Source: an uncultured Actinomycetes bacterium
Lineage (GTDB): Bacteria > Actinomycetota > Thermoleophilia > Gaiellales > JALYLC01
Direction: 5' to 3'
NCBI GenBank assembly: GCA_963845865.1
Contig: CAWJTT010000005.1
Coordinates: 11,315 to 75,314, forward strand
Length of the DNA stretch: 64,000 nt
Under the pieces are notes generated by a model. It was not told where the DNA came from, did no database searches, and was given only the letters and a program-made list of their open reading frames with translations. This document shows positions 14,285 through 44,484 of this stretch, one piece after another (position 1 is the first letter of the stretch; each line of letters opens with the position of its first letter). A program made the position numbers and the translations under genes.

Positions 14285-14483
14285 ATTCCCGCTGTTGGTC
14301 GAGAACTGACAGCGCTTTTCGGTAGGTTCCGTTTCGCGCAATTTGCGGTCGCGTTTCCGTCACCTATGCTGCCCGCCACCTCGGACTCGCGGCTGAGTTG
14401 CAGGGGGGACAGCGAGGCGTGTCGCTTGATGCGGTGCAGGTTGGTGCCATACGAACCGGGAGGTGCGGTATGAGGGCCACGGA

Positions 14484-15566
14484 ATGCTGACGGTCGAGTA
14501 CTCGCTGCCCGATATCGAGGAGCTCACGCGCCTCGTTGAGGCCGGCCAGGAAAAGGGCTTCTTGACGTACGACGAGATCGCGACCGTGCTCGAAGAGGTC
14601 GAGATCTCGAAGGAGCAGGTAGAGGATCTGCATTCGTACCTGCTCGACCACGGCATCGACGTGCTCGAGAGCGCCGGCGATCCCGCGCCGGACGCGCCGG
14701 CAGCCGAGAAGGGGCCGGAGCTCGACCTGACCGTTGAGCCGTCGCTCGACTCCCTGCGTCTCTATCTCCGCGCCATCGGCCGCGTCTCGCTGCTCACGGC
14801 CGAGCAGGAAGTGCACCTCGCCAAGCGCATCGAGCGCGGCGACATGCGTGCCAAGCAGGCCATGATCGAGGCCAATCTGCGCCTCGTCGTCTCCATTGCG
14901 AAGGGCTATCTCGGTCGCGGCCTCTCGTTTCTCGACCTCATCCAGGAAGGCTCTCTCGGACTCATCCGCGCAGTCGAGAAGTTCGACTACCGCAAGGGCT
15001 ACAAGTTCTCCACCTACGCGACCTGGTGGATCCGGCAAGCGGTGACCCGCGCGATCGCCGACAAGTCCCGGACCATCCGCATCCCGGTCCACATGGTCGA
15101 GAAGCTCAACAAGGCCGTGCATGTCGAGCGCCAGCTCGTGCAGAAGCTCGGCCGCGAGCCGCTCCCGTCCGAGATCGCGCGCGAGCTCGGCATGAGCGCC
15201 GACGAGGTGCGCGAGATCATGCGCATGGCGCTGGCGCCGATCTCCCTCGAGAAGCCGATCGGCGAAGACGAGGAGTCCGAGCTCGGCGACTTCGTGCGCG
15301 ACGACAGCGAGCCGACGCCCTTCGACACCGCGACGCTCAACCTGCGCCGCGAGGACATCGAGCGGGCACTGGAATCGCTCCCCGAGCGCGAGCGGCGCGT
15401 GATCGAGCTCCGCTACGGCCTCACCGGAGATCGCCCGCGCACGCTCGAAGAGGTCGGGCGCGCGTTCGGCGTGACGCGCGAGCGCATCCGCCAGATCGAG
15501 AACAACACGCTCAAGAAGCTGGAGACCCTGCCGGAGGCCCAGAGCCTGCGCGGCACGATGGGCTGA
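14484..15566 (+). CDS. rpoD: principal (group 1/2) RNA polymerase sigma factor
   Basis: Regions 1.2 to 4 are present: [72 protein letters not shown] and [30 protein letters not shown] 14484 has GAGGG 7 nt upstream. The track start at 14463 is less likely. Confidence 0.9.
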
Positions 15567-15819: not shown

Positions 15820-16043
15820 GCAACCTCTCGCACCGGGCTCGATCGACGGGCCGATGCCGACGCGCTGGCGCAGCCGTCCTGCTTCGCCATTGGGGCCCTG
15901 CCCCACGGCCGGACGGCGCCCCCGCCGGTGCGTGCGTGCAACGAGGTTGCAGACTGGGGCCCCCCGGGCCGCGTCACTGCTAGGGGCCGGTGGGTCGGGC
16001 TCGTTGGCGATCATGAGGCTTCTCCGTTGGGAACGGCGCACGC

Positions 16044-16075
16044 GAGCGCGAGCGGTGTCCTGACCGCTCGCGCTC
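16044..16075 (-). terminator. perfect 13-bp hairpin downstream of the small secreted-protein gene
   Basis: GAGCGCGAGCGGT - gtcctg - ACCGCTCGCGCTC, 37 nt after the stop at 16112. There is no T tract. Confidence 0.45.
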
Positions 16076-16111
16076 ATTCACGTGATGGCTGGGAGGGGTT
16101 GCGACGCGGAT

Positions 16112-16381
16112 TTACTGCGCCCACGGCCGCGTCTTGGCGGCTTCCCACTTGGCCGCGAGCGCGCTGCCCTCGACGCCGAGGCCCGCAAAGGCGTTCGTGC
16201 CGGACTCGACCTTGCGGAGGGCGCTGCCCTCGTGGCCGAGACCTGCAAAGGCGCTTGACCGCGCGTGAGCGACGATCTGGTGGCGCTTGACCGGCGTGCG
16301 CTGGTCGCCGGCCTGGGAGGCGGGCACGACGAGCGCACTCAGGAGAAGCGCACAGGCGATGGTGTTGACGCGGTGGTTCAT
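16112..16381 (-). CDS. small secreted protein (89 aa) with an internal tandem 13-aa repeat
   Basis: ATG 16381 has GAAGGAG 5 nt upstream. The signal peptide is MNHRVNTIACALLLSALVVPASQA. The mature part contains AFAGLGHEGSAL and AFAGLGVEGSAL separated by 8 residues. The track ORF begins 16 codons earlier. Confidence 0.7.
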   Translation of the reverse strand: MNHRVNTIACALLLSALVVPASQAGDQRTPVKRHQIVAHARSSAFAGLGHEGSALRKVESGTNAFAGLGVEGSALAAKWEAAKTRPWAQ

Positions 16382-16575
16382 CGGGACTCCTTCTCGCCGA
16401 GGGCCGTCCGATACGGCCCAACGAGACAAGCGTCCGAGGTGGCGGTTGGAGATCGGCTAAGGAGCGCTTGCGCGCGGTAGAGAAGCGCTAGAGGACGCGC
16501 GAGCGTCGCGCTGCACTGGCGTGGTAGCTTTGCGCCAGCAGGAGGCGGAGAGACGATGCATGCGGGCGAGCTCGG

Positions 16576-19500
16576 GTGAAGGGCCGGCTTGACTTCCGTG
16601 TCCTGGGGCCCTTGGAGGTCGTAGGCGAAGAGGGCGCGGTGGCGCTGGCGCAGGGAAAGGCGCGCGTCGCTCTCGGCGTCCTGCTGATACATGCGAACGA
16701 GGTCGTTGCCACCGATCGACTGATCGATGACATCTGGGGGGCGCAGCCGCCCGCGACTGCGCTCAAGAGCGTGCACGTCTACGTCTCACAGCTGCGGCGA
16801 AGCCTGGGCGCCGACGCGATCGTGACGCGACCGCCCGGGTACCAGTTGCGACTGGAGCCCGGGCAACTCGACCTCTACCGCTTCGAACGGCTGCGCGAGG
16901 AAGCGGCGCACGCTGAACCGGCCACCGCCGCCGCAAAGCTGCGCCAAGCACTCCGTTTGTGGCGTGGGCCGCCGTTTGCGGACTTCACCTACGCAGCCTT
17001 CGCGCAGGCGACGATCGCTCGCCTCGAGGAGCTGCGAGTCTGTGTGCTCGAAGAATGCATCGCAGCCGAGCTGGAGCTGGGACGCCATGCGGAGCTCGTG
17101 GGTGAGCTCGCGACACTCGCACAGGAGCATCCACTGCGCGAGCGCATCCGCGCCGCGCAGATGCTCGCACTCTACCGCTCGGGCCGGCAAGCAGACGCGC
17201 TCGCGGCCTACCAGAGCACGCGTCGCGCACTCGTCGACGTGCTCGGGATCGAGCCCGGCCGGGCCCTCCACGAACTCGAGCGAGACATCCTGACTCAGGA
17301 GTCCGCACTCGACTTCGTCCCGTCAGAAACGCACGCGGTAGCTCCAGAGAGAACCCTTCAGCCTCAAGGTATGCAGGCAGAGAGGTCCCTTCCGACGGGA
17401 ACGGTCAGCCTCCTCTTCACCGACATCGAGGGATCCACGCGTGTGCTCCAGACTCTCGGCGAGATCGTCGGACGCGAAGAGGAGCTTGCAAGTCTCGTCG
17501 CTTGCCTCGAGCAGCGGCAGCGGCTACCGCGGGAAATCGTGATCGAAGGTGAGGCGGGAATCGGCAAGACGATGTTGTGGCGGCACGCGGTCGCCGAGGC
17601 TCAAGCGCAGGGTTACCGGGTTCTCTCGTGCAGCCCGAGCGAAACCGAGGCGCACCTCGCCTTTTCTGGGTTGCGCGATCTCCTGGACGCGGCCTACGGC
17701 GACGGCGCGGACGCGCTCCCGCCTCCGCAGCGGCGCGCGCTCGACATTGCTCTCCTGCGTGCCGATCCCGGACAGCGGTCTCCCGATCAGGGAGCCGTGG
17801 CGGCAGCGTTTCTCGCCTCGCTCCGGCGCCTTGCGGAGCGCCGTCCAGTTCTCGTTGCGGTCGACGATGTCCAATGGCTCGACGGATCGACGGCGTTCCT
17901 GATGGGCTTCGTCGCGCGCCGGTTGCAAGACGAGCGGGTCGCCCTCCTCGTCGCCCGGCGCGCGGCCTTGTCTGATGCCGAACTGGCGTTCGGAGTGCGT
18001 GATCGGCTGCGAATGACGCTCGGTCCGCTCAGCATCGGAGCGCTTCACCGCATCCTGCGAACGCAGCTGGGCGGCGCTGCGCCGAGCCGGCCGATGCTGG
18101 TACGTCTGCACGAGCTCGCGGGCGGCAATCCCTTCTACGCGCTTGAGATTGCGCGTGCCCTTGAGCGCCGGGCCGACCTGGGGCCGGGCGAGGAGCTTCC
18201 CCTGCCTGCGCGGCTGCAGGATCTCGTGCTCGAGCGGCTCGCTGCGCTCCCGGAGCGCACGGTGGAGGCGCTTCAGGTCATAGCTGCGCTCTCGCAGCCG
18301 ACCGTGACGCTCGTCACCTCGGTGCTCCGCGACAACGCGGAGCCGCTCGAGCCAGCACTTGCGGCGCACGTGATCTCGACCGACGGTGATCGCCTGGTGT
18401 TCACGCACCCACTCCTGGCTTCCGGCGCATACTCCACCGCCGGTCCCGCGCGTCGGCGTGACCTGCACGGTCGGCTTGCGATGATCGTCGAGGAGGCCGA
18501 GGAACGGGCAAGGCACCTCGCGCTGGCCACCCTCCAGCCCGGCGCGGCAGTCGCGGCCGCACTCGAAGACGCGGCCCAGCGCGCGCGGGCACGCGGTGCG
18601 CTAAGCGCGGCCGCCGATCTCGCCGAGCAGGCAGTGCGGCTCACGCCGCCGGACGCGCGCGAGGACGTCCTCCGCCGGACGATCGAAGCCGCGGGCAATT
18701 GCTTCGAGGCAGGCGACGCCGGGCGGGCGCGGGCACTCTTCGAGCGTGCCGTCAGCATCGCTCCCGAGGGAGGACGTCGTCGGGCCACTGCGTTGGTGAG
18801 GCTCGCTCGCGCGAACGCGTTCGGAGCGAACCTCCGGGTCGCCGCCGCGCTCTACCGACAGGCGATCGCGGAGGCAGATCCGGAGAGTGCGACCCGTGCC
18901 GAGGCGGAAGAGGGACTCGCGGTCGCGCTCATGCGGATGCTCAAGGATCTCCCAACTGCTGCTCAGCACGCGGCGAACGCGACGGAGCTCGCCAAGCGCT
19001 TGGGCGACGGTCATGCGCTTGCGGAGTTCCGCGCGTCACACGCGCTTATCGTCGGGCTTCGGGGCGACCCACGAGCGCTCGGGTTGATGCAGCGTGTTGA
19101 GGGCGTGGAGGCGTTCGATGCGGAGAGCGATTTCGGTCCCTCGCGATTTCTGCGCACACTCTGGGGAACAGGATTCATGTCCTCGGTCCTCCGCGTGTTC
19201 GCCGACGATCTCGATGAGGCGCGAGCAGGGCTCGAGCTCGCGCGTGCGCGGGCCGTCGAGGCCGGCGACGAGGCGTCCTTGCCGCTCCTGCTGCGGTACC
19301 TGAGTCTCGTCGAGCTCCTCGCCGGTGACTGGTCTCGCGCGGAGCGCTTGGCCGACGAGGGTTACGAGGCATCCCTCCAGACCGGACAGCCCTCGCAACA
19401 GGCCGTGCTCGCGGCGTCAAGTGCGTTGATCGCAGCTCACGGAGGAAACGTCGAGGCGACGCGGGCGAGAGCGGACGAGGCGCTACGTCTCGGCGAGGAG

Positions 19501-20241
19501 ACCGGGTCGGGGTTCGCAGAACTGCTGGCCCGCTCGGCGCTTGGCCTGCTCGAGCTCTCGCTCGGGAATCCAGACCGTGCGGCGGAGGAGCTCGAGCCGC
19601 TCGTCGACGCGATCGAGGCAGCAGGTGTCGGCGAACCTGGAGTGGCACGATTCGTGCCTGACGCGATCGAGGCCAGGGTCGCGGTCGGGCGGCTTGGGGA
19701 TGCCGGCAGGCTGCTGGCGTCACACGAGGAGCGCGCGATGCGGCTCGACAGGCCGTCCGCTCTCGCGGCCGCAGGGCGTTGTCGCGCGTTGCTGCTCGCG
19801 GCGCGGACGGACTTCGACGGGGCGCTCGCCTCCGTCGGCGAGGCGCTCGCCCAGCATGCTCGGGTAGCGATTCCGTTCGAGCGTGGCCGGACGCTCCTCG
19901 TTCTCGGCGCAGTCCAGCGGCGCGCGACGCGAAAACGCGCAGCGCGAGAAGCGCTCGAGGAAGCGCTCGCGGTCTTCGAGCGGCTCGGTGCACGACTGTT
20001 CGCAGAGCAAGCACGCCTGGAGCTTGGCCGCATCGGTGGGCGCCGCCCCCCCACCGACCGACTGACGCCGACGGAACGCCGGGTTGCCGGCCTCGTCGCC
20101 GAAGGGCGATCGACGAAAGAGGTTGCCGCGACGCTCTTCGTCTCTCCGAAGACGGTCGAGGGACACCTGTCGAGCATCTACACCAAGCTGGGCATCCACT
20201 CGCGAACGGCGCTGGCCCGCGAGCTCTCGGCGTCTCGGTAG
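16576..20241 (+). CDS. chimeric transcriptional regulator: SARP (winged helix + BTAD), cyclase stub, P-loop STAND ATPase, TPR, LuxR HTH
   Basis: The N-terminus FRVLGPLEV...YVSQLRRSLG...GYQL plus ALRLWRGPPFADF...AELELGRH...LMLALYRSGRQADAL is the AfsR/DnrI type. LPTGTVSLLFTDIEGST is the start of a class III cyclase domain. IVGREEEL...GEAGIGKTML is the Walker A region. A long helical-repeat region follows. The C-terminus LTPTERRVAGLVAEGRSTKEVAATLFVSPKTVEGHLSSIYTKLG is a LuxR HTH. Confidence 0.85.
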   Translation: MKGRLDFRVLGPLEVVGEEGAVALAQGKARVALGVLLIHANEVVATDRLIDDIWGAQPPATALKSVHVYVSQLRRSLGADAIVTRPPGYQLRLEPGQLDLYRFERLREEAAHAEPATAAAKLRQALRLWRGPPFADFTYAAFAQATIARLEELRVCVLEECIAAELELGRHAELVGELATLAQEHPLRERIRAAQMLALYRSGRQADALAAYQSTRRALVDVLGIEPGRALHELERDILTQESALDFVPSETHAVAPERTLQPQGMQAERSLPTGTVSLLFTDIEGSTRVLQTLGEIVGREEELASLVACLEQRQRLPREIVIEGEAGIGKTMLWRHAVAEAQAQGYRVLSCSPSETEAHLAFSGLRDLLDAAYGDGADALPPPQRRALDIALLRADPGQRSPDQGAVAAAFLASLRRLAERRPVLVAVDDVQWLDGSTAFLMGFVARRLQDERVALLVARRAALSDAELAFGVRDRLRMTLGPLSIGALHRILRTQLGGAAPSRPMLVRLHELAGGNPFYALEIARALERRADLGPGEELPLPARLQDLVLERLAALPERTVEALQVIAALSQPTVTLVTSVLRDNAEPLEPALAAHVISTDGDRLVFTHPLLASGAYSTAGPARRRDLHGRLAMIVEEAEERARHLALATLQPGAAVAAALEDAAQRARARGALSAAADLAEQAVRLTPPDAREDVLRRTIEAAGNCFEAGDAGRARALFERAVSIAPEGGRRRATALVRLARANAFGANLRVAAALYRQAIAEADPESATRAEAEEGLAVALMRMLKDLPTAAQHAANATELAKRLGDGHALAEFRASHALIVGLRGDPRALGLMQRVEGVEAFDAESDFGPSRFLRTLWGTGFMSSVLRVFADDLDEARAGLELARARAVEAGDEASLPLLLRYLSLVELLAGDWSRAERLADEGYEASLQTGQPSQQAVLAASSALIAAHGGNVEATRARADEALRLGEETGSGFAELLARSALGLLELSLGNPDRAAEELEPLVDAIEAAGVGEPGVARFVPDAIEARVAVGRLGDAGRLLASHEERAMRLDRPSALAAAGRCRALLLAARTDFDGALASVGEALAQHARVAIPFERGRTLLVLGAVQRRATRKRAAREALEEALAVFERLGARLFAEQARLELGRIGGRRPPTDRLTPTERRVAGLVAEGRSTKEVAATLFVSPKTVEGHLSSIYTKLGIHSRTALARELSASR

Positions 20242-20257
20242 ACCCGCCGCAAAGACA

Positions 20258-20281
20258 GGGGATTTTCCCCGTTTCTCTTTC
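20258..20281 (+). terminator. weak intrinsic terminator after the regulator gene
   Basis: GGGGA-ttt-TCCCC followed by GTTTCTCTTTC. Confidence 0.4.
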
Positions 20282-20309
20282 GCGGGCGCCCTCCTAACCT
20301 CGGCTGCAA

Positions 20310-20576
20310 ATGGCGCGGTATCTCGTCGAGGTCTACATGCCGAACCGCGGCGACGCAGTTGCGCGCACGCACGCGGACGCGGCGACGCTCGCGCGCTCGC
20401 GCGGTGTGCGCTACGTGCGGGCGATCCTCATCCCGGAGGACGAAACGTGCTTTCACGTGCTCGACGCAGCCTCCGCGGACATCGTCGACGGAGCTGCAAG
20501 AGAGGGGTCCGTTCGGGTTGAGCGGATCGCCGAGGCCGTCGAGGTTTCGCGCCCGACACAAAGGGAGGAGCCATGA
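20310..20576 (+). CDS. small cytoplasmic protein resembling DUF4242
   Basis: The pattern MARYLVEVYMP...GVRYVRAILIPEDETCFHVLDAASADIVDGAAREG...ERIAEAVEV fits. No clear SD is visible. Its stop overlaps the next start (ATGA). Confidence 0.6.
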   Translation: MARYLVEVYMPNRGDAVARTHADAATLARSRGVRYVRAILIPEDETCFHVLDAASADIVDGAAREGSVRVERIAEAVEVSRPTQREEP

Positions 20577-21076
20577 GAAGGAAGATCATGCTCGGAGTGC
20601 TCGTCGCCGCAATTACGGGGGCGGCAGTGGCCGTGCCGCTCGCGGCATCGGCGGATCGCGACCACAGGCTCGTGATCGGCGTCAGAGTGAATTTCGTCAG
20701 CTCGACGCACGCCGAAGGCACGTTCGCGGCCTGCTGCGCGGTCAACGACAACGGCGCCGCTCAGGCTGACATCACCGCCTTCAGCGTCAAGAATGACGAT
20801 ACGGGCGCGTTCGAGGCGATCGAGACGTTCTCCGGTTCGAAGGGCTCGTTCAGGCTGGCGCTGCGCGGCACGACTGGTCCGCTAAGCAGCCTCCGCCACG
20901 TCGCGCGCGGCCATTGGTCGGTCCTGGATGGCACCGGCGCATACGCCGGCATGAAAGGAGAGGGAAAGCTCACCGCCGTCACAGACGAGACGGACGGCGC
21001 TCTCACCGCGATCAACGACGGCGAGGCGCAGGCGGTCGAACGCTCGGCCGAACCCCGAGAGGAGAAGAAGCAATGA
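20573..21076 (+). CDS. secreted hypothetical protein (167 aa)
   Basis: GGGAGGAG lies upstream. The signal peptide is MRRKIMLGVLVAAITGAAVAVPLAASA. The beta-rich body carries GHWSVLDGTGAYAGMKGEGKL. Confidence 0.75.
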   Translation: MRRKIMLGVLVAAITGAAVAVPLAASADRDHRLVIGVRVNFVSSTHAEGTFAACCAVNDNGAAQADITAFSVKNDDTGAFEAIETFSGSKGSFRLALRGTTGPLSSLRHVARGHWSVLDGTGAYAGMKGEGKLTAVTDETDGALTAINDGEAQAVERSAEPREEKKQ

Positions 21077-22810: not shown

Positions 22811-22896
22811 GCGAGCCTCCTTCGGCTTAGCGTATCGGACGTTCCATCTCGGGCCTCAGCGCCGGTCGAGTTCCGGAGTCTTCAGGCACGGCCGTC

Positions 22897-22918
22897 AAAG
22901 CCCGCTCCGGCGGGCTTT
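22897..22918 (-). terminator. perfect 9-bp hairpin AAAGCCCGC-tccg-GCGGGCTTT
   Basis: It lies about 100 nt downstream of the collagen-like gene stop at 23016. Confidence 0.45.
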
Positions 22919-22963
22919 CCTGCGCTTCAGCGTGGTAGAGCTCGGGCGCACAGCCGGCGTGGG

Positions 22964-23010
22964 GGCGTGAGCGAGGATCGGCGCCGACGCCGCTCACCCT
23001 CGCTCACGCC
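22964..23010 (-). terminator. 13-bp perfect inverted repeat with a 21-nt loop
   Basis: GGCGTGAGCGAGG ... CCTCGCTCACGCC starts 6 nt after the stop at 23016. Confidence 0.4.
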
Positions 23011-23015
23011 GCCGT

Positions 23016-23741
23016 TCAGGAAGCGACGAGCGTCGCGCTCGGGTTGCTCTGTGCGAGTTCGGCCGTCATCGTGATTGGCCCCCAGAACACGGCCGGGCAG
23101 TCGGACGCGCCATTTAGGTAGATGGTGTTAGCGCCTGCGACGATCGGCAGGACGCGTGTTGCCGAGGCGCTGAATCCGAGGAACGTTCCTGCGCCGTTTT
23201 GGGTGGGCAGGTTGCCGTTGATCCACTGATCGGCGAAGCCTGGCGCCGACGCGCCGCCGACCGGAATCGTCGGAGCAGCGGCAGCGGAGGCGATCTGCGA
23301 CTGAACTCGGCAGTCCGTGCCTGCGGTGTTGTGTACGCGTGTCGAGAAATTCGCCGTGACGAGCGCGAAGCCGGCGGTCGTCGAGGTGAAGGTGAGGTGC
23401 GCGACCTCACCGCTCGGCAGCGGAACTCGTGCCGCCGGGTATGCCGATGCGCTCCAGACAGCCGTCAGTCCCGCGAGTCCGGGGGCCCCCGCGGCTCCCG
23501 CGGGACCCGCGGGGCCTGCCGGTCCCCTCGGACCCGCCGGGCCGACGGGGCCACGGCGTCCGCGCAGACCGCGTAGCTTCTTCGGCGGCTTCTTCTTGGC
23601 CGCGTGTGCGTTCTTGGCCGGGTGTGCGGAGGGCGCCGTCGAGGAAGCGACGGCGATCCCGCCCACCGTCGCGAGAGTAAACCCCGCCGCCACGCTAGCG
23701 ATCACGAGTGGCGACCGGGTGAACGCGCGAGCACGTCTCAT
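23016..23741 (-). CDS. exported collagen-like protein with a globular beta-rich C-terminal domain (BclA-like layout)
   Basis: ATG 23741 has AGGAGGAG upstream. The N-terminus MRRARAFTRSPLVIASVAAGFTLATVGGIAVA is a signal or anchor. A Lys-rich linker is followed by 11 GXY triplets (GLRGRRGPVGPAGPRGPAGPAGPAGAAGAPGLAG). About 145 further residues follow. The upstream part of track ORF 23016..23963 is shadow. Confidence 0.75.
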   Translation of the reverse strand: MRRARAFTRSPLVIASVAAGFTLATVGGIAVASSTAPSAHPAKNAHAAKKKPPKKLRGLRGRRGPVGPAGPRGPAGPAGPAGAAGAPGLAGLTAVWSASAYPAARVPLPSGEVAHLTFTSTTAGFALVTANFSTRVHNTAGTDCRVQSQIASAAAAPTIPVGGASAPGFADQWINGNLPTQNGAGTFLGFSASATRVLPIVAGANTIYLNGASDCPAVFWGPITMTAELAQSNPSATLVAS

Positions 23742-23838
23742 GGCTCCTCCTAAGGGGAGAACAGGGTGGAACGCGGAGCATCTCCCGTACGCGCACCGAA
23801 CGCAAGCTTCCCGTGCCGAGCAGCCTGCTACGCGGGGT

Positions 23839-35430: not shown

Positions 35431-35556
35431 AGAGCGACGCCCGGGGGACATGGAGCGTGAGAGCCTTTCGATCCGCGCTTCGATGGAGCGCCGCTCGGGC
35501 CCGTCGCGGGCGCGGTCACGTCGCCCAAACGCATCGCTCCGAGTCGTTCTCGCGCG

Positions 35557-36429
35557 CTACGGCACTTGTCGAGTGGGGCTCAGCGACTCGGCGTGTGCGA
35601 TGTCGCGAGGCCCTCGACGCGCGCGGAGCATGCGCGCGTAGTCGTGCCGTGTGCGCGCGAGCCATGGGCGGGCGTCCATGCGCGCGTTCGCGTCGAGTGC
35701 TGCTTCGAAATGGCGGACTGCATCCTCCCAGCGTCCAAGCACGGCTGCGGCGTTGCCGAGGCTGCGTGATACGTCGCCGAGGCTGATCTCGTCTGCGTTG
35801 GAGGCGTTGCGCCCCGCATGTGGACGCAGCAGGTCGTAGAGCGTGCCGGCGTGGTCGGCGGAACCCAGTCGTTCGCTCGCGTCGGCGAGGAAGCTCATGC
35901 AGAAGAGCCATTCGTTGTCGACCGGAATGTCGGTGAACGCGCCGACGGCGAGGTGCTCGAGCGCAGTACGCGCCTCGTCCTCACGGCCGAGATCGCAGAG
36001 CAGGAGAACGAGCGCGCAGCGGAATACCGGCCGCGCCGGATACTCCTGAACGGATCGTCTGATCGTCTCCTCGATCTCGTCCAGACGGCCTTGCTCGCGT
36101 CGGAGCAGGAAGAGCTGGAGGCGCGACGAGAGGGTGGCATCTTGGTTCATGGCGTGGCGGCCGAGCTCGAGCGCTCGCGAGATCAGAGTTTCGGCGTCGT
36201 CGAGTCGCCCGGTAAGCAGCGCCAGGTTGGCGCGCGTTGCCGCGACGTACCAGAGCTGCGCGGGCTGTCGTAACTCGTCCGCGTAATCGCCGCAAACCCT
36301 GTCAGCCCATGAGCGTGCTCCGCGCGAGCGGTCGGGAGACCGCTCGCGCGCGTGCGGGTCGCCGCGAGGTGGGAACGAACGAGCAAGAGGCCGCCGTACT
36401 CCGTAACCTCCTCGATCGCGCGCGCAGGG
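35557..36429 (-). pseudogene. remnant of the TPR region of a large STAND/cyclase/LuxR-type regulator, truncated at both ends
   Basis: The frame is open from the TAG at 36432-36430 down to the stop at 35557. The first ATG/GTG/TTG is at 36150. The product (...LWYVAATRANLALLTGRLDDAETLISRALELGRHAMNQDATLSSRLQLFLLRREQGRLDE...ARPWLARTRHDYARMLRARRGPRD...) looks like the distal helical repeats of such regulators. It has no ATPase or HTH. Confidence 0.5.
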
Positions 36430-42870: not shown

Positions 42871-44484
42871 TCAGGCCAGGCCGTGCGCGTGCGCCCAGGC
42901 GGTCGCCGCGGCGCGCGCGCTGCGGCCGGAGACACCGATCTTGCCGTAGATGTTCTCGACGTGGCGCTCGACAGTGCGTACGCTGAGCACGAGCTCCGAG
43001 GCGATCGCGTCGTTCGATCGTCCCTGCGCGAGGAGGTGGAGGACCTCGCGCTCGCGCGCTGTCAGGAGCGACTGCTCATCCGGCGCCGCTGGAGCAGGAG
43101 CGCCGAGCTCGGCCAGCGCGGAGCGGGCCGCGACAAGAGCTGCATCTGCGGCGTCGAGTCGGCCCTGCGCGCGCAGCACATCTGCCAGATCGAGGCGGGC
43201 CTGCGCAGCCTCGTAGCGAGCACCGCAGGCCGCATAGAGGTCGATGGCATCCTCGAGCGCGCTCCGTGCCGCGGCCGGCTCGCGCTTGGCTTCGACGCGT
43301 CCGCGCGCGAGCAGCGCCGCGGCCCGGAGAGGATCCGTGCCCGCTTCGGCCGCGGTGCGCTCCAGCTCGGCTGCGGCGCTCTCGGCCGTCGGTGAATCGC
43401 CGACGCCCAGGCTGGCCCGCACCTGGAGCTCGAGACCCGGCGCGCGCTCGAAGCGATCCTTCTCCCCGACCCGGCGCAGGTAGCGCTCCGCCTCCTCGAC
43501 CGCCCCCGACGCATCACCACGGTCGAGGCAGAGGGCCGCTCGCACGAGCAACGCCAGGCGGTGCCCCTCCGCCTCCGCCAGCAGTGCACCGGCCTGGTCC
43601 GGCCGGCCCTGCCGGCGGCGCAGCTCCGCAAGGCGCACGAGTCCGTCGGCGACCTTGCGGGGCACGCCGCCGAGATCGCGACATGCGGCGGTGAGCGTCT
43701 GCTCCGCCTCGCTCCACTGCCCGCGCCAGACGAGCAGATCGGCGTAGTGGGTACGGCAGGTCGCGAACATCTCCGCGTCCGCGTAGCGCTCCGAGATCTC
43801 CCCGACGCGGAGGCACCACTCGCCTGCGCGATCGAGATCGCGCACCCGCTGGCAGGCGTCGATCAGGTGGCAGCAGATGACCTCGACCATCCGCACGACC
43901 GCGATCTCGCCCGCGACGGCCGAGGTCGTCGCCTCGTCCAGCAGGCGCATGCCCTCGCGCACCTCGCCTGCGGCGACTTGCGCCAGGCCCTCGAGCGCTC
44001 GGCAGATCATCTCGTAGTCGAGCGATCCCGCCGCGACCGCCGCCGCGACGCCCGCCGCCGCCTGCCGCTGGGCCTCGGCCGGATCGTGGTCGCCGTTGAG
44101 CGCCCGGTTCGCCCGCCAGTACGCAAGTGCCGCGTGCTCCGGCGCAGGGGGCAGTCCCTCCAGCAGATGCCCGGCGCGCTCCAGCCAGCCGTTCGCCTCC
44201 GCCGCGCCGCGAAACTGCGCGCAGTCGAATGCCAGCTCTATGGCCAGCCGCGCCGAGGCCGGCTCGTCGCCTGCCTCACGCGCCAGTCGGTAGGCGCGCT
44301 CGTGCGACGCCAGTGCCGTGGGCCCGTCCATCTGCCAGCGGGCAGCGACGCCGAGGCCCTCGAGTGCCTCGACCGTCTCCTCCGCGGCGAGCGCGGCCTC
44401 GAAGCAGGAGCGCGCCTCGGCCCAGGCGGCGCGCACCAACGCCGCTCGCCCGGCCGGCAGGGAGCTCTCCCCGAGAGCACTCAC
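42871..44484 (-). CDS. LuxR family regulator with a long N-terminal TPR-like sensor region and no ATPase
   Basis: The C-terminal HTH is LTAREREVLHLLAQGRSNDAIASELVLSVRTVERHVENIYGKIG. The start is approximate: GTG 44484 was chosen so the gene does not overlap the divergent gene. Confidence 0.8.
   Translation of the reverse strand: MSALGESSLPAGRAALVRAAWAEARSCFEAALAAEETVEALEGLGVAARWQMDGPTALASHERAYRLAREAGDEPASARLAIELAFDCAQFRGAAEANGWLERAGHLLEGLPPAPEHAALAYWRANRALNGDHDPAEAQRQAAAGVAAAVAAGSLDYEMICRALEGLAQVAAGEVREGMRLLDEATTSAVAGEIAVVRMVEVICCHLIDACQRVRDLDRAGEWCLRVGEISERYADAEMFATCRTHYADLLVWRGQWSEAEQTLTAACRDLGGVPRKVADGLVRLAELRRRQGRPDQAGALLAEAEGHRLALLVRAALCLDRGDASGAVEEAERYLRRVGEKDRFERAPGLELQVRASLGVGDSPTAESAAAELERTAAEAGTDPLRAAALLARGRVEAKREPAAARSALEDAIDLYAACGARYEAAQARLDLADVLRAQGRLDAADAALVAARSALAELGAPAPAAPDEQSLLTAREREVLHLLAQGRSNDAIASELVLSVRTVERHVENIYGKIGVSGRSARAAATAWAHAHGLA

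What the first reader, a model, noticed from the sequence alone, without database searches (positions are those of the whole stretch)
16576..20241. Regulator with DNA-binding domains at both ends (SARP N-terminus and LuxR C-terminus) around a STAND ATPase-TPR core
The N-terminal 250 residues are a complete AfsR/DnrI-type unit, with an OmpR-like winged helix plus BTAD. The C-terminal 60 residues are a canonical LuxR/GerE HTH. Between them lie a P-loop NTPase (GEAGIGKTML) and more than 600 residues of helical repeats.

The known families are normally one of two types. AfsR-like proteins are SARP-ATPase-TPR. The other type is cyclase-ATPase-TPR-LuxR. This protein looks like a fusion of the two, so one polypeptide could in principle read two different operator types.
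Basis: partly seen in the sequence, partly recalled or inferred. Interest (0 to 1): 0.65.

Follow-up and report, generated by a model that had tools for sequence, protein, structure and literature searches.

The report
Young SARP–LuxR fused STAND regulator
One intact 1221-residue gene in a soil actinobacterium (class Thermoleophilia) joins an antibiotic-regulator-type DNA-binding head (SARP) to a complete ATP-switch regulator with a LuxR-type DNA-binding tail; it is a rare, uncharacterised, evolutionarily young fusion that still carries a 24-residue scar of a lost cyclase domain at the seam.

Summary

The "fusion" reading is supported and can be sharpened: the gene is a three-piece mosaic.
- The promoter and SARP (residues 1-248) are 86% identical in DNA to the 5' end of a paralogous SARP-AAA_16-TPR gene.
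- Residues 272-295 are the first strand-helix of a class III cyclase domain and are predicted to be disordered.
- From residue 296 onward the gene is 94.6% identical in DNA to a stand-alone 931-residue LuxR-STAND gene. That gene family always starts about 7 codons upstream of the seam.

At least seven other contigs carry the same seam, so it is not an assembly artefact.

The architecture is rare. It occurs in 12 of 348 retrieved relatives and in 1 of the top 150 representatives among 1.84 billion. It is absent from published SARP classifications, and it arose independently at least five times. One older fused clade conserves both DNA-binding domains better than the core, so dual output can be maintained.

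Whether both domains bind DNA in this protein is untested. Verdict: a new variant of a known kind (a SARP-LAL that keeps its LuxR HTH), of moderate interest.

The parts
16576..20241 (+). Complete fused ORF, 1221 aa: SARP, cyclase scar, STAND ATPase, TPR, LuxR HTH.
   Evidence: The exact protein is present in public collections (P0348, from an 86-kb NCBI/ENA contig).
16672..16845 (+). OmpR-type winged helix (Trans_reg_C), residues 33-90.
   Evidence: Pfam 34.1 bits against GA 26.2. Superposes on the AfsR SARP domain.
16867..17292 (+). BTAD domain, residues 98-239.
   Evidence: Pfam 140.4 bits. pLDDT is above 95.
17329..17451 (+). Predicted disordered linker, residues 252-292.
   Evidence: This is the only segment of the AF2 model with pLDDT below 50.
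17389..17460 (+). Scar of a class III nucleotide cyclase domain, residues 272-295 (LPTGTVSLLFTDIEGSTRVLQTLG). It covers the first strand and helix, including the FTDIEGST metal-Asp motif. The rest of the domain is deleted.
   Evidence: The two best PDB hits for the 55-aa stretch around the seam are the N-termini of cyclase catalytic domains (1fx4, 4wp3; E about 0.4). The peptide LLFTDIEGSTRVL occurs at 14 metagenome loci. In 10 of them a full-length cyclase domain continues from it; in the other 4 the cyclase match is cut short on short contigs. There is no Guanylate_cyc Pfam hit.
17461..17463 (+). Fusion seam: the first codon (E296 of EIVGREEEL) that is homologous to unfused LuxR-STAND genes.
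   Evidence: The DNA identity of 94.6% to L001 begins at 17461. Unfused relatives start with MAVEPEEIVGRE, VRNNPLVAVEAQEIVGRE or VVVETREIVGRE.
17464..17943 (+). AAA_16 P-loop NTPase of the STAND nucleotide-binding (NOD) module, residues 297-456. Walker A is at 17548-17571 and Walker B at 17848-17883.
   Evidence: Foldseek matches to Apaf-1, 6mfv and NLRs.
18256..20025 (+). Helical arm and TPR sensor region, roughly residues 561-1150.
   Evidence: Four TPR_12 stretches. Homologues carry TPR_MalT / TPR_12 annotations.
20059..20220 (+). LuxR/GerE helix-turn-helix, residues 1162-1215.
   Evidence: Pfam 59.7 bits. PDB hits to GerE (1fse) and DevR.
16037..17319 (+). Mosaic segment 1: terminator hairpin, divergent small gene, promoter/leader and SARP residues 1-248. 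It is paralogous to the 5' end of a SARP-AAA_16-TPR gene ('gene A').
   Evidence: 85.9% DNA identity to L083 9465-10744, and 82% to L084.
17461..20591 (+). Mosaic segment 3: the LuxR-STAND body plus the SCO4226-like gene, shared with unfused cassettes.
   Evidence: 94.6% identity to L001 1966-5093. The cassette is conserved in the contigs carrying P0003 and P0004.
16112..16382 (-). Divergent small gene (89 aa, signal-peptide-like N-terminus) that was duplicated together with the SARP module.
   Evidence: Sequence reading. The same 89-aa gene is called in L003, L083 and L100. No Pfam hit.
16476..16493 (+). Candidate SARP box: heptamer direct repeat GGTAGAG-N4-GCTAGAG with an 11-nt period, in the divergent intergenic region.
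   Evidence: The repeat is perfect in the L084 paralogue and degenerate in L083. It is the only match in the 64-kb window, but the search pattern was derived from this site. Weak evidence.
20298..20576 (+). SCO4226-like small protein, the conserved downstream partner of the LuxR-STAND gene.
   Evidence: Pfam 27.9 bits, just below GA 28.5. Present after every relative examined.
20573..21076 (+). Third cassette gene: about 167 aa, signal-peptide-like N-terminus, weak DUF3224 match.
   Evidence: A protein of similar size follows in the P0003 and P0004 contigs.

Best explanation
This is a real, intact gene for a STAND-type (signal-transducing ATPase) transcription regulator that carries an output domain at each end. 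A SARP unit (OmpR-type winged helix plus BTAD) sits at the N-terminus and a LuxR/GerE HTH at the C-terminus.

Origin. A recent in-frame fusion created it. The promoter, leader and SARP-coding 5' end of a SARP-(cyclase)-AAA_16-TPR paralogue were joined, inside the first helix of a cyclase domain, to codon ~8 of a stand-alone LuxR-STAND gene. That gene heads a conserved three-gene cassette: regulator, SCO4226-like protein, and a ~150-aa secreted protein. The 24-residue cyclase stub now forms part of a disordered linker.

Inferred mechanism. This part is by analogy with AfsR and MalT and is not shown here. In the resting ADP state the TPR arm and the nucleotide-binding domain hold the protein closed and restrain the SARP unit. 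A ligand on the TPR sensor, together with ATP binding, opens and oligomerises the protein. SARP dimers can then sit on heptamer direct repeats near a -35 element and contact sigma region 4 and RNA polymerase, while LuxR HTH dimers bind palindromic sites.

Likely consequence. The ancestral LuxR regulon is probably the downstream cassette. It is now expressed from, and coupled to, the promoter and targets of the SARP paralogue, probably the divergent small secreted-protein gene.

Confidence is about 0.85 for the anatomy and the fusion history, and about 0.35 for both outputs being used. The overall figure given reflects both.
For: Domains and folds.

Mosaic structure:
- Segment 1 is 85.9% identical to the 5' end of gene A.
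- Segment 3 is 94.6% identical to unfused L001, starting exactly at residue 296.
- The cyclase scar lies between them.
- The nearest relatives of the body are all unfused (94, 88 and 69%).
- The SARP is 75-90% identical to those of SARP-AAA_16 genes, but only 49-58% identical to the SARPs of other fused proteins.

Not an artefact: the same seam occurs in L002 (99.7%), L003 (98.2%) and L100 (96.0%), and in proteins P0361, P0362, P0363 and P0366, all from separate contigs.

Purifying selection: dN/dS is 0.26 for the body against L001 and about 0.18-0.19 for the SARP against its paralogues. It is 0.22-0.30 among population alleles.

The architecture can be maintained: in fused clade A (P0079, P0090, P0241, P0242, P0244) the wHTH (86%) and GerE (87%) are more conserved than the NOD (75%) or TPR (69%).

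Mechanistic precedent: in AfsR, the NOD and TPR inhibit SARP activation and ATP binding relieves this; SARP dimers bind direct repeats overlapping the -35 element (PMC10936776).
Against: There is no experimental or binding-site evidence that either DNA-binding domain is used.

The fusion is young. The body differs from an unfused copy by dS of only 0.12, so selection has had little time to test it.

L002 lacks SARP residues 1-186. L003 and L100 carry frameshifts in the body. If these are real, the gene is dispensable in some strains.

The donor gene with an intact cyclase was not found. A one-step (two-piece) origin therefore cannot be distinguished from a multi-step (three-piece) origin.

The candidate SARP box is statistically weak.
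Confidence: 0.6

Rival explanations
1. The gene is a chimera with only one working output. The LuxR-STAND body keeps its ancestral job, and the SARP head is a passenger that mainly donated a new promoter and leader (or the reverse). On this view the fusion is neutral or mildly deleterious and will be lost.
For: - The fusion is very young (94.6% DNA identity to an unfused copy).
- The architecture is rare: 12 of 348 relatives, and 1 of the top 150 representatives.
- L002 lacks the winged helix and half of the BTAD domain.
- The linker is a non-functional scar.
- The fusion replaced the body's own promoter.
Against: - The SARP part is virtually invariant across strains and shows dN/dS of about 0.18 against its paralogues.
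- Fused clade A keeps both DNA-binding domains as its most conserved parts.
- The open frame is preserved across at least three diverged body alleles.
Confidence: 0.3
2. The long ORF is an assembly or sequencing artefact. Either two adjacent or paralogous genes were joined by a chimeric contig, or a frameshift 'correction' produced the open frame.
For: - The related contigs come from long-read metagenome assemblies that show indels.
- L002 diverges at a conserved BTAD motif.
- SARP and LuxR-STAND paralogues are abundant in these genomes.
Against: - An identical seam appears in at least seven other contigs from different samples.
- No stop codon or intergenic remnant lies at the seam.
- The codon-position GC pattern is uniform across it.
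- The window frame agrees with the unfused JGI metagenome protein P0002 over 925 codons.
- The L003 and L100 indels fall at sites where haplotypes differ and look like merged-haplotype consensus errors.
Confidence: 0.04
3. The gene is decaying (a pseudogene in the making). The frameshifts shared by L003 and L100 at 17492, 18227 and 18771 are real, and the window copy merely happens to be still open.
For: - Three frameshift positions are shared by two contigs that differ by 5% in this region.
- Four cluster members stop at about 322-325 aa.
Against: - Substitutions remain concentrated at third codon positions (131/56/40 in L100), and dN/dS is 0.22-0.30.
- Other contigs read through those positions: P0363 to residue ~354, P0361 to ~733, and P0001 to the end.
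- Each shared indel looks like the union of two real haplotypes.
Confidence: 0.1
4. Two products come from one gene. As well as the full-length protein, internal initiation at GTG (V289), preceded by GAGGGA 9 nt upstream, re-creates a near-ancestral stand-alone LuxR-STAND protein. The fusion would then add a SARP-tagged isoform rather than replace the original.
For: An SD-like GAGGGA and an in-frame GTG lie 7 codons before the seam. This mimics the ancestral N-terminal length (sequence; N-termini).
Against: The evidence is purely sequence-based. There are no promoter or ribosome-profiling data. In high-GC DNA, such GTG/SD-like pairs arise easily by chance.
Confidence: 0.1

Closest known systems
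SARP-LAL regulators (PimR, SanG, PolR, FilR, PteR, ScnRI of Streptomyces)
   Same: Both have an N-terminal SARP (winged helix plus BTAD) followed by an AAA_16-type ATPase and a helical region homologous to the LAL / guanylate-cyclase-LuxR family. Both are a single polypeptide of about 1100-1200 aa (PMC3367932, PMC10972967, PMC12224297).
   Different: SARP-LALs are described as lacking both the cyclase signature and the C-terminal LuxR HTH. This protein keeps a full GerE domain (59.7 bits) and a 24-residue cyclase stub. It is not in a biosynthetic gene cluster, and it comes from Thermoleophilia rather than Streptomyces. Its fusion is independent and recent.
AfsR and other large SARPs (SARP-NB-ARC-TPR)
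   Same: The SARP unit superposes on AfsR (TM 0.92, 41% identity). The overall logic is the same: an effector, a STAND nucleotide-binding domain and a TPR sensor, with ATP-relieved autoinhibition as the expected control (PMC10936776).
   Different: The nucleotide-binding domain is of the AAA_16 / MalT-LAL type, not NB-ARC. The NCBIfam AfsR equivalog scores 184 bits against a cut-off of 1430. AfsR has no C-terminal DNA-binding domain.
LAL / MalT-type LuxR-STAND regulators (AAA_16-TPR-GerE, about 920-940 aa)
   Same: Residues 296-1221 are a complete member of this group. They are 94% identical to the unfused protein P0002 and sit in the same downstream cassette.
   Different: About 295 extra N-terminal residues carry a second DNA-binding and activation module. 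The gene's own promoter and first ~7 codons have been replaced.
Actinobacterial class III cyclase-ATPase-TPR-LuxR proteins (Rv0386 / Rv1358 / Rv2488c type)
   Same: The layout is the same, with an N-terminal output domain before an AAA_16-TPR-LuxR body. Locus L091 shows this architecture, and its cyclase starts with a peptide 75% identical to the region spanning the scar.
   Different: The cyclase is reduced to 24 residues with no catalytic core. A SARP unit occupies the N-terminal output position instead.

Membership tests
SARP family (AfsR/DnrI/RedD type) | OmpR-type winged-helix DNA-binding domain (Trans_reg_C) | tested here: met
   34.1 bits against GA 26.2, residues 33-90. Foldseek to AfsR gives TM 0.92.
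SARP family (AfsR/DnrI/RedD type) | BTAD domain immediately after the winged helix | tested here: met
   140.4 bits, full-length match to 1-146/146 of the model.
SARP family (AfsR/DnrI/RedD type) | Binds heptamer direct repeats at 11-nt spacing near the -35 element and activates transcription | not testable with these tools
   Only a weak candidate site was found, GGTAGAG-N4-GCTAGAG at 16476-16493.
AfsR orthologue / large SARP | NB-ARC type nucleotide-binding domain; AfsR equivalog score | tested here: not met
   No NB-ARC (PF00931) hit; AAA_16 is found instead. NF053617 scores 184 bits against a cut-off of 1430, and only over residues 3-279.
SARP-LAL (PimR class) | SARP N-terminus plus an AAA_16/LAL-type ATPase half | tested here: met
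   classification taken from PMC12224297.
SARP-LAL (PimR class) | Lacks a LuxR-type HTH at the C-terminus (as the class is described) | tested here: not met
   GerE scores 59.7 bits at residues 1162-1215. Class description in PMC3367932 and PMC10972967.
SARP-LAL (PimR class) | Cluster-situated activator of a biosynthetic gene cluster | tested here: not met
   The ten neighbouring genes scanned include a sigma-70 factor, asparaginase II, FolE2, an SCO4226-like protein, a GDSL lipase and a solute-binding protein. No biosynthetic enzymes were found. Only about 16 kb around the gene was scanned.
LAL / MalT-type LuxR-STAND regulators | P-loop AAA_16 NTPase with Walker A and B, followed by a helical/TPR sensor | tested here: met
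   STAND fold matches.
LAL / MalT-type LuxR-STAND regulators | C-terminal LuxR/GerE HTH | tested here: met
LAL / MalT-type LuxR-STAND regulators | The ATPase domain is at the N-terminus of the protein | tested here: not met
   295 residues precede it. The unfused relatives start about 7 residues before EIVGRE.
Class III cyclase-ATPase-TPR-LuxR proteins | Catalytic class III cyclase domain (Guanylate_cyc) | tested here: not met
   No PF00211 hit even at E <= 1. Only the first 24 residues of such a domain remain, and they are predicted to be disordered.
STAND NTPases | ATP-dependent oligomerisation switch controlled by a sensor domain | not testable with these tools
   The fold and motifs are consistent, but the function was not assayed.

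The most novel reading that the evidence does not exclude
Both DNA-binding domains are functional. The protein would then be a single ATP/ligand-gated switch that reads two unrelated operator grammars: SARP direct repeats at the -35 element and LuxR palindromes. It would either bridge them at composite promoters or couple two formerly separate regulons. Nature has assembled this design independently at least five times in Thermoleophilia, and it has been kept long-term in at least one clade.
Probability: 0.3. Interest if true: 0.65.

Novelty: new variant of a known kind. Interest (0 to 1): 0.45.

Why it matters
SARP and LAL/LuxR-STAND regulators are the main handles used to switch on silent pathways in actinobacteria. 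Their current classification has no class with a DNA-binding domain at both ends.

This locus is a dated natural experiment in regulator domain shuffling. The donor-type and acceptor-type genes, the exact seam, a scar of the lost domain and several population alleles are all visible. One can therefore ask what a STAND switch does when it is given a second output, and how quickly such chimeras are kept or discarded.

If both outputs work, the protein offers a compact natural template for synthetic two-input or two-output regulators. If only one works, it is a clean example of promoter capture by gene fusion.

Tried and rejected
1. "The head comes from a small stand-alone SARP." The best non-self hits, P0123 (255 aa) and P0125 (262 aa), looked like small SARPs. 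Their contigs show that they are the 5' pieces of SARP-AAA_16-TPR genes, split into several ORFs by frameshifts. Rejected.

2. "The seam is an assembly chimera." Rejected, because at least seven other contigs carry the same seam.

3. "The L003 and L100 frameshifts prove a pseudogene." Judged unlikely. The indels sit at polymorphic sites and look like merged haplotypes, and dN/dS is about 0.25.

4. Search for the pre-fusion donor. The 15-residue seam peptide gave 0 hits in JGI metagenomes. A 13-residue version gave 14 cyclase genes, none with a SARP upstream. The donor was not found.

5. GTDB genome scan. The best hit was only 49% identical, and none of the 79 loci had a SARP or a cyclase directly upstream. 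No species-level source was identified, and this route gave no census of the architecture.

6. The first profile search of the representative library failed because the profile exceeded 1200 positions. It was repeated with alignment A4.

7. A look-up of the contig encoding the exact window protein returned nothing.

8. A literature search for a regulator combining SARP and LuxR DNA-binding domains found none. A BTAD/GerE/AAA_16 text search gave nothing relevant beyond the SARP-LAL papers.

9. The heptamer-repeat pattern was searched across the window. Only the founding site matched, so there is no regulon evidence.

Full report
**1. The observation**

The window has about 70% G+C. A single ORF runs from a GTG at 16576 to a stop at 20241 on the + strand and encodes 1221 aa. 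The codon-position GC pattern is constant along it (GC1 0.80, GC2 0.51, GC3 0.78), so one reading frame is used throughout.

Pfam places the following domains, all above their gathering thresholds:
- Trans_reg_C at residues 33-90 (34.1 bits)
- BTAD at 98-239 (140.4 bits)
- AAA_16 at 297-456 (66 bits)
- four TPR_12 stretches
- GerE at 1162-1215 (59.7 bits)

Walker A (GEAGIGKT, 325-332) and Walker B (VLVAVDDVQWLD, 425-436) are intact.

The PDB sequence search finds AfsR (E 1e-40, residues 3-278), EmbR and GerE/DevR-type HTHs.

An AlphaFold2 model of residues 1-640 is confident for the SARP unit (pLDDT 95-98) and for the ATPase module (about 90-95). It has one disordered stretch, residues 252-292. 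Foldseek puts the SARP unit on AfsR (TM 0.92, rmsd 1.7 A). It matches the ATPase module to STAND proteins such as 6mfv, Apaf-1, CED-4 and plant NLRs.

**2.

Residues 272-295 (LPTGTVSLLFTDIEGSTRVLQTLG) are the first strand and helix of a class III nucleotide cyclase domain, including the FTDIEGST metal-binding signature.
- There is no Guanylate_cyc Pfam hit, because nothing else of the domain remains.
- The two best PDB matches to the 55-residue stretch around the seam are the N-termini of cyclase catalytic domains (1fx4, 4wp3). They are individually insignificant, at E about 0.4.
- The peptide LLFTDIEGSTRVL occurs at 14 JGI metagenome loci. In 10 of them it is the very start of a full-length cyclase domain. 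In the other 4 the cyclase match is cut short on short contigs. One locus (L091) shows cyclase-NOD-...-GerE.
- The stub lies in the disordered linker of the model.

**3. The gene is a young mosaic**

*Right part.* From residue 296 (EIVGREEEL; nt 17461) to 20591, the window is 94.6% identical in DNA to JGI contig L001. There the homologous gene (P0002, 931 aa) has no SARP and starts MAVEPEEIVGRE. A peptidase gene lies upstream of it.

The next relatives start at the same place and also lack a SARP: P0003 (88%), P0004 (69%) and P0005-P0014 (about 65%). They head a conserved cassette of regulator, SCO4226-like protein and a ~150-aa protein. The window retains this cassette at 20298-21076. The unfused state is therefore ancestral for this clade.

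*Left part.* Positions 16037-17319 comprise a terminator hairpin, a divergent 89-aa gene, the promoter/leader and SARP residues 1-248. This stretch is 85.9% identical to the 5' end of a SARP-AAA_16-TPR gene ('gene A', no GerE) in contig L083, and 82% identical to the corresponding region in L084.

*Middle part.* The 141 nt between them (17320-17460: linker plus cyclase stub) match neither.

The simplest history is a single illegitimate join between a SARP-cyclase-... paralogue and the 5' end of the cassette gene. A multi-step, three-piece origin is not excluded, because the donor was not found.

**4. Not an artefact**

The exact protein is in public collections (P0348, from an 86-kb NCBI/ENA contig). 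The same seam is present in:
- L002 (99.7% identity)
- L003 (98.2%)
- L100 (96.0%)
- proteins P0361, P0362, P0363 and P0366, from further contigs

L003 and L100 carry single-base indels in the body. Each indel lies at a site where haplotypes differ, and each looks like the union of two variants. For example, GTCGTCGAG and GTGCTCGAG give GTCGCTCGAG. Other contigs read through those positions. I regard the indels as consensus errors of mixed-strain long-read assemblies, but this needs read-level confirmation.

L002 differs from the window to the left of residue 187, within a conserved BTAD motif. This may be a strain rearrangement or a misassembly; it is unresolved.

**5. Selection and population structure**

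dN/dS is 0.26 for the body against L001, and 0.18-0.19 for the SARP against its paralogues.

Among the near-identical strains, the flanks and the SARP part show almost no differences. Divergence jumps at the seam, reaches up to 37 substitutions per 200 nt in the NOD region, and fades after about 20900.

The alleles differ by 3-9%, are not simply L001-like, and have dN/dS of 0.22-0.30. This pattern fits repeated recombination or gene conversion of the body with diverged functional copies, bounded on the left by the point where homology to unfused paralogues ends. It also shows that the fused layout persists across several body alleles.

**6. How common is the architecture?**

- Among 348 proteins retrieved by three searches of 5.8 billion sequences, 12 have SARP-NOD-GerE, 210 have NOD-GerE, 4 have SARP-NOD and 2 have SARP-cyclase-NOD.
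- An exhaustive profile search of 1.84 billion cluster representatives lists only one full-architecture protein among the best 150 (P0369, confirmed by Pfam). Four more hits have SARP-NOD-TPR without GerE.
- All examples come from metagenomes or MAGs of Thermoleophilia (Gaiellaceae, Solirubrobacterales and relatives).
- Identity matrices indicate at least five independent origins: the window lineage; P0015 (body 71% identical, in the trimmed alignment, to unfused proteins); P0030; P0031; clade A (P0079, P0241, P0090, P0242-P0244); and clade B (P0037, P0247).
- In clade A the two DNA-binding domains are the best conserved parts: wHTH 86% and GerE 87%, against NOD 75% and TPR 69%. This argues that a dual-output protein can be selectively maintained.

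**7. Literature**

SARPs are classified as small, medium (NB-ARC), large (NB-ARC-TPR) and SARP-LAL (PMC10972967, PMC12224297). The SARP-LAL class (PimR, SanG, PolR, FilR, PteR) is explicitly said to lack both the cyclase signature and the LuxR HTH (PMC3367932). No paper combining SARP and LuxR DNA-binding domains in one protein was found.

For AfsR, the NOD and TPR inhibit SARP-dependent activation and ATP relieves this. SARP dimers bind direct repeats overlapping the -35 element and contact sigma region 4 (PMC10936776).

**8. Mechanism (inferred)**

The protein is most likely a ligand- and ATP-gated STAND activator. The fusion did two things.
- It put the LuxR-STAND gene and its cassette under the promoter and leader of a SARP paralogue. 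The leader includes a conserved 7-codon uORF overlapping the GTG start.
- It attached a second output domain through a flexible linker.

A candidate SARP box (GGTAGAG-N4-GCTAGAG, 16476-16493) lies in the divergent intergenic region. It is perfect in L084, but the evidence for it is weak.

Nothing here shows whether both outputs are used. I put that at about 0.3-0.4 for this protein, and higher for clade A.

**9. Context**

The neighbouring genes are a sigma-70 factor (14430-15566), asparaginase II, FolE2, a GDSL lipase and a solute-binding protein. There is no biosynthetic cluster.

**10. Verdict**

The fusion interpretation is supported and refined. The dual-operator idea is untested. This is a new variant of a known kind (a SARP-LAL-like regulator that keeps its LuxR HTH). 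It is rare, has arisen repeatedly and is uncharacterised. Interest is moderate.

Noticed in passing
window 35550-36283 (- strand); junction near 36283: This is a remnant of a second SARP-AAA_16-TPR gene ('gene A'). Only its C-terminal ~240 codons remain, at 96.6% identity to L083 12771-13503. Relative to L083, the window has a clean 3.2-kb deletion that removes the small divergent gene, the SARP, the AAA_16 domain and half of the TPR region. A ~74-bp hairpin-containing segment is repeated in inverted orientation at 16037-16110 and 36283-36356.
   Followed up: partly
window 17461-20900 compared with L003 and L100: The NOD-TPR body is a polymorphism hot spot among otherwise nearly identical strains. 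It shows up to 37 differences per 200 nt, against 0-3 in the SARP part and the flanks. The elevated divergence starts exactly at the fusion seam. dN/dS is 0.22-0.30, which suggests recombination or gene conversion with diverged functional copies.
   Followed up: partly
window 16557-16579: A 7-codon uORF (ATG CAT GCG GGC GAG CTC GGG TGA) has AGGAGG 10 nt upstream of its ATG. Its stop overlaps the GTG start of the regulator (GTGA). The arrangement is conserved in the L083 and L084 paralogues, which suggests translational coupling or a leader peptide.
   Followed up: no
window 22855-23826, compared with L002 8778-9851 and L003 7198-10002: After the GDSL lipase gene, the related contigs carry an extra small SARP gene on the minus strand, plus an IS481-family transposase in L003. 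The window lacks both. This is another sign of SARP-gene turnover at this locus.
   Followed up: no
L002 1-3065, compared with window left of 17135: Contig L002 is 99.7% identical to the window from residue 187 onward. To the left of a conserved BTAD motif it has unrelated sequence, including a different BTAD-like gene on the opposite strand. This is either a strain-specific truncation of the SARP head or a misassembly.
   Followed up: partly
L085 2-2974 and 8329-11886: Two tandem paralogous copies of the cassette (LuxR-STAND, SCO4226-like protein, ~150-aa protein) lie on one contig. The cassette therefore duplicates as a unit.
   Followed up: no
window 17434-17442: An in-frame GTG (V289), preceded by GAGGGA 9 nt upstream, lies 7 codons before the seam. 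It could allow internal initiation of a near-ancestral, SARP-less isoform (sequence).
   Followed up: no
window 42919-43065 (- strand): This is the only other GerE-type HTH detected in the window (45% identity to the C-terminus of the regulator). The window contains no other SARP or NOD copy.
   Followed up: no
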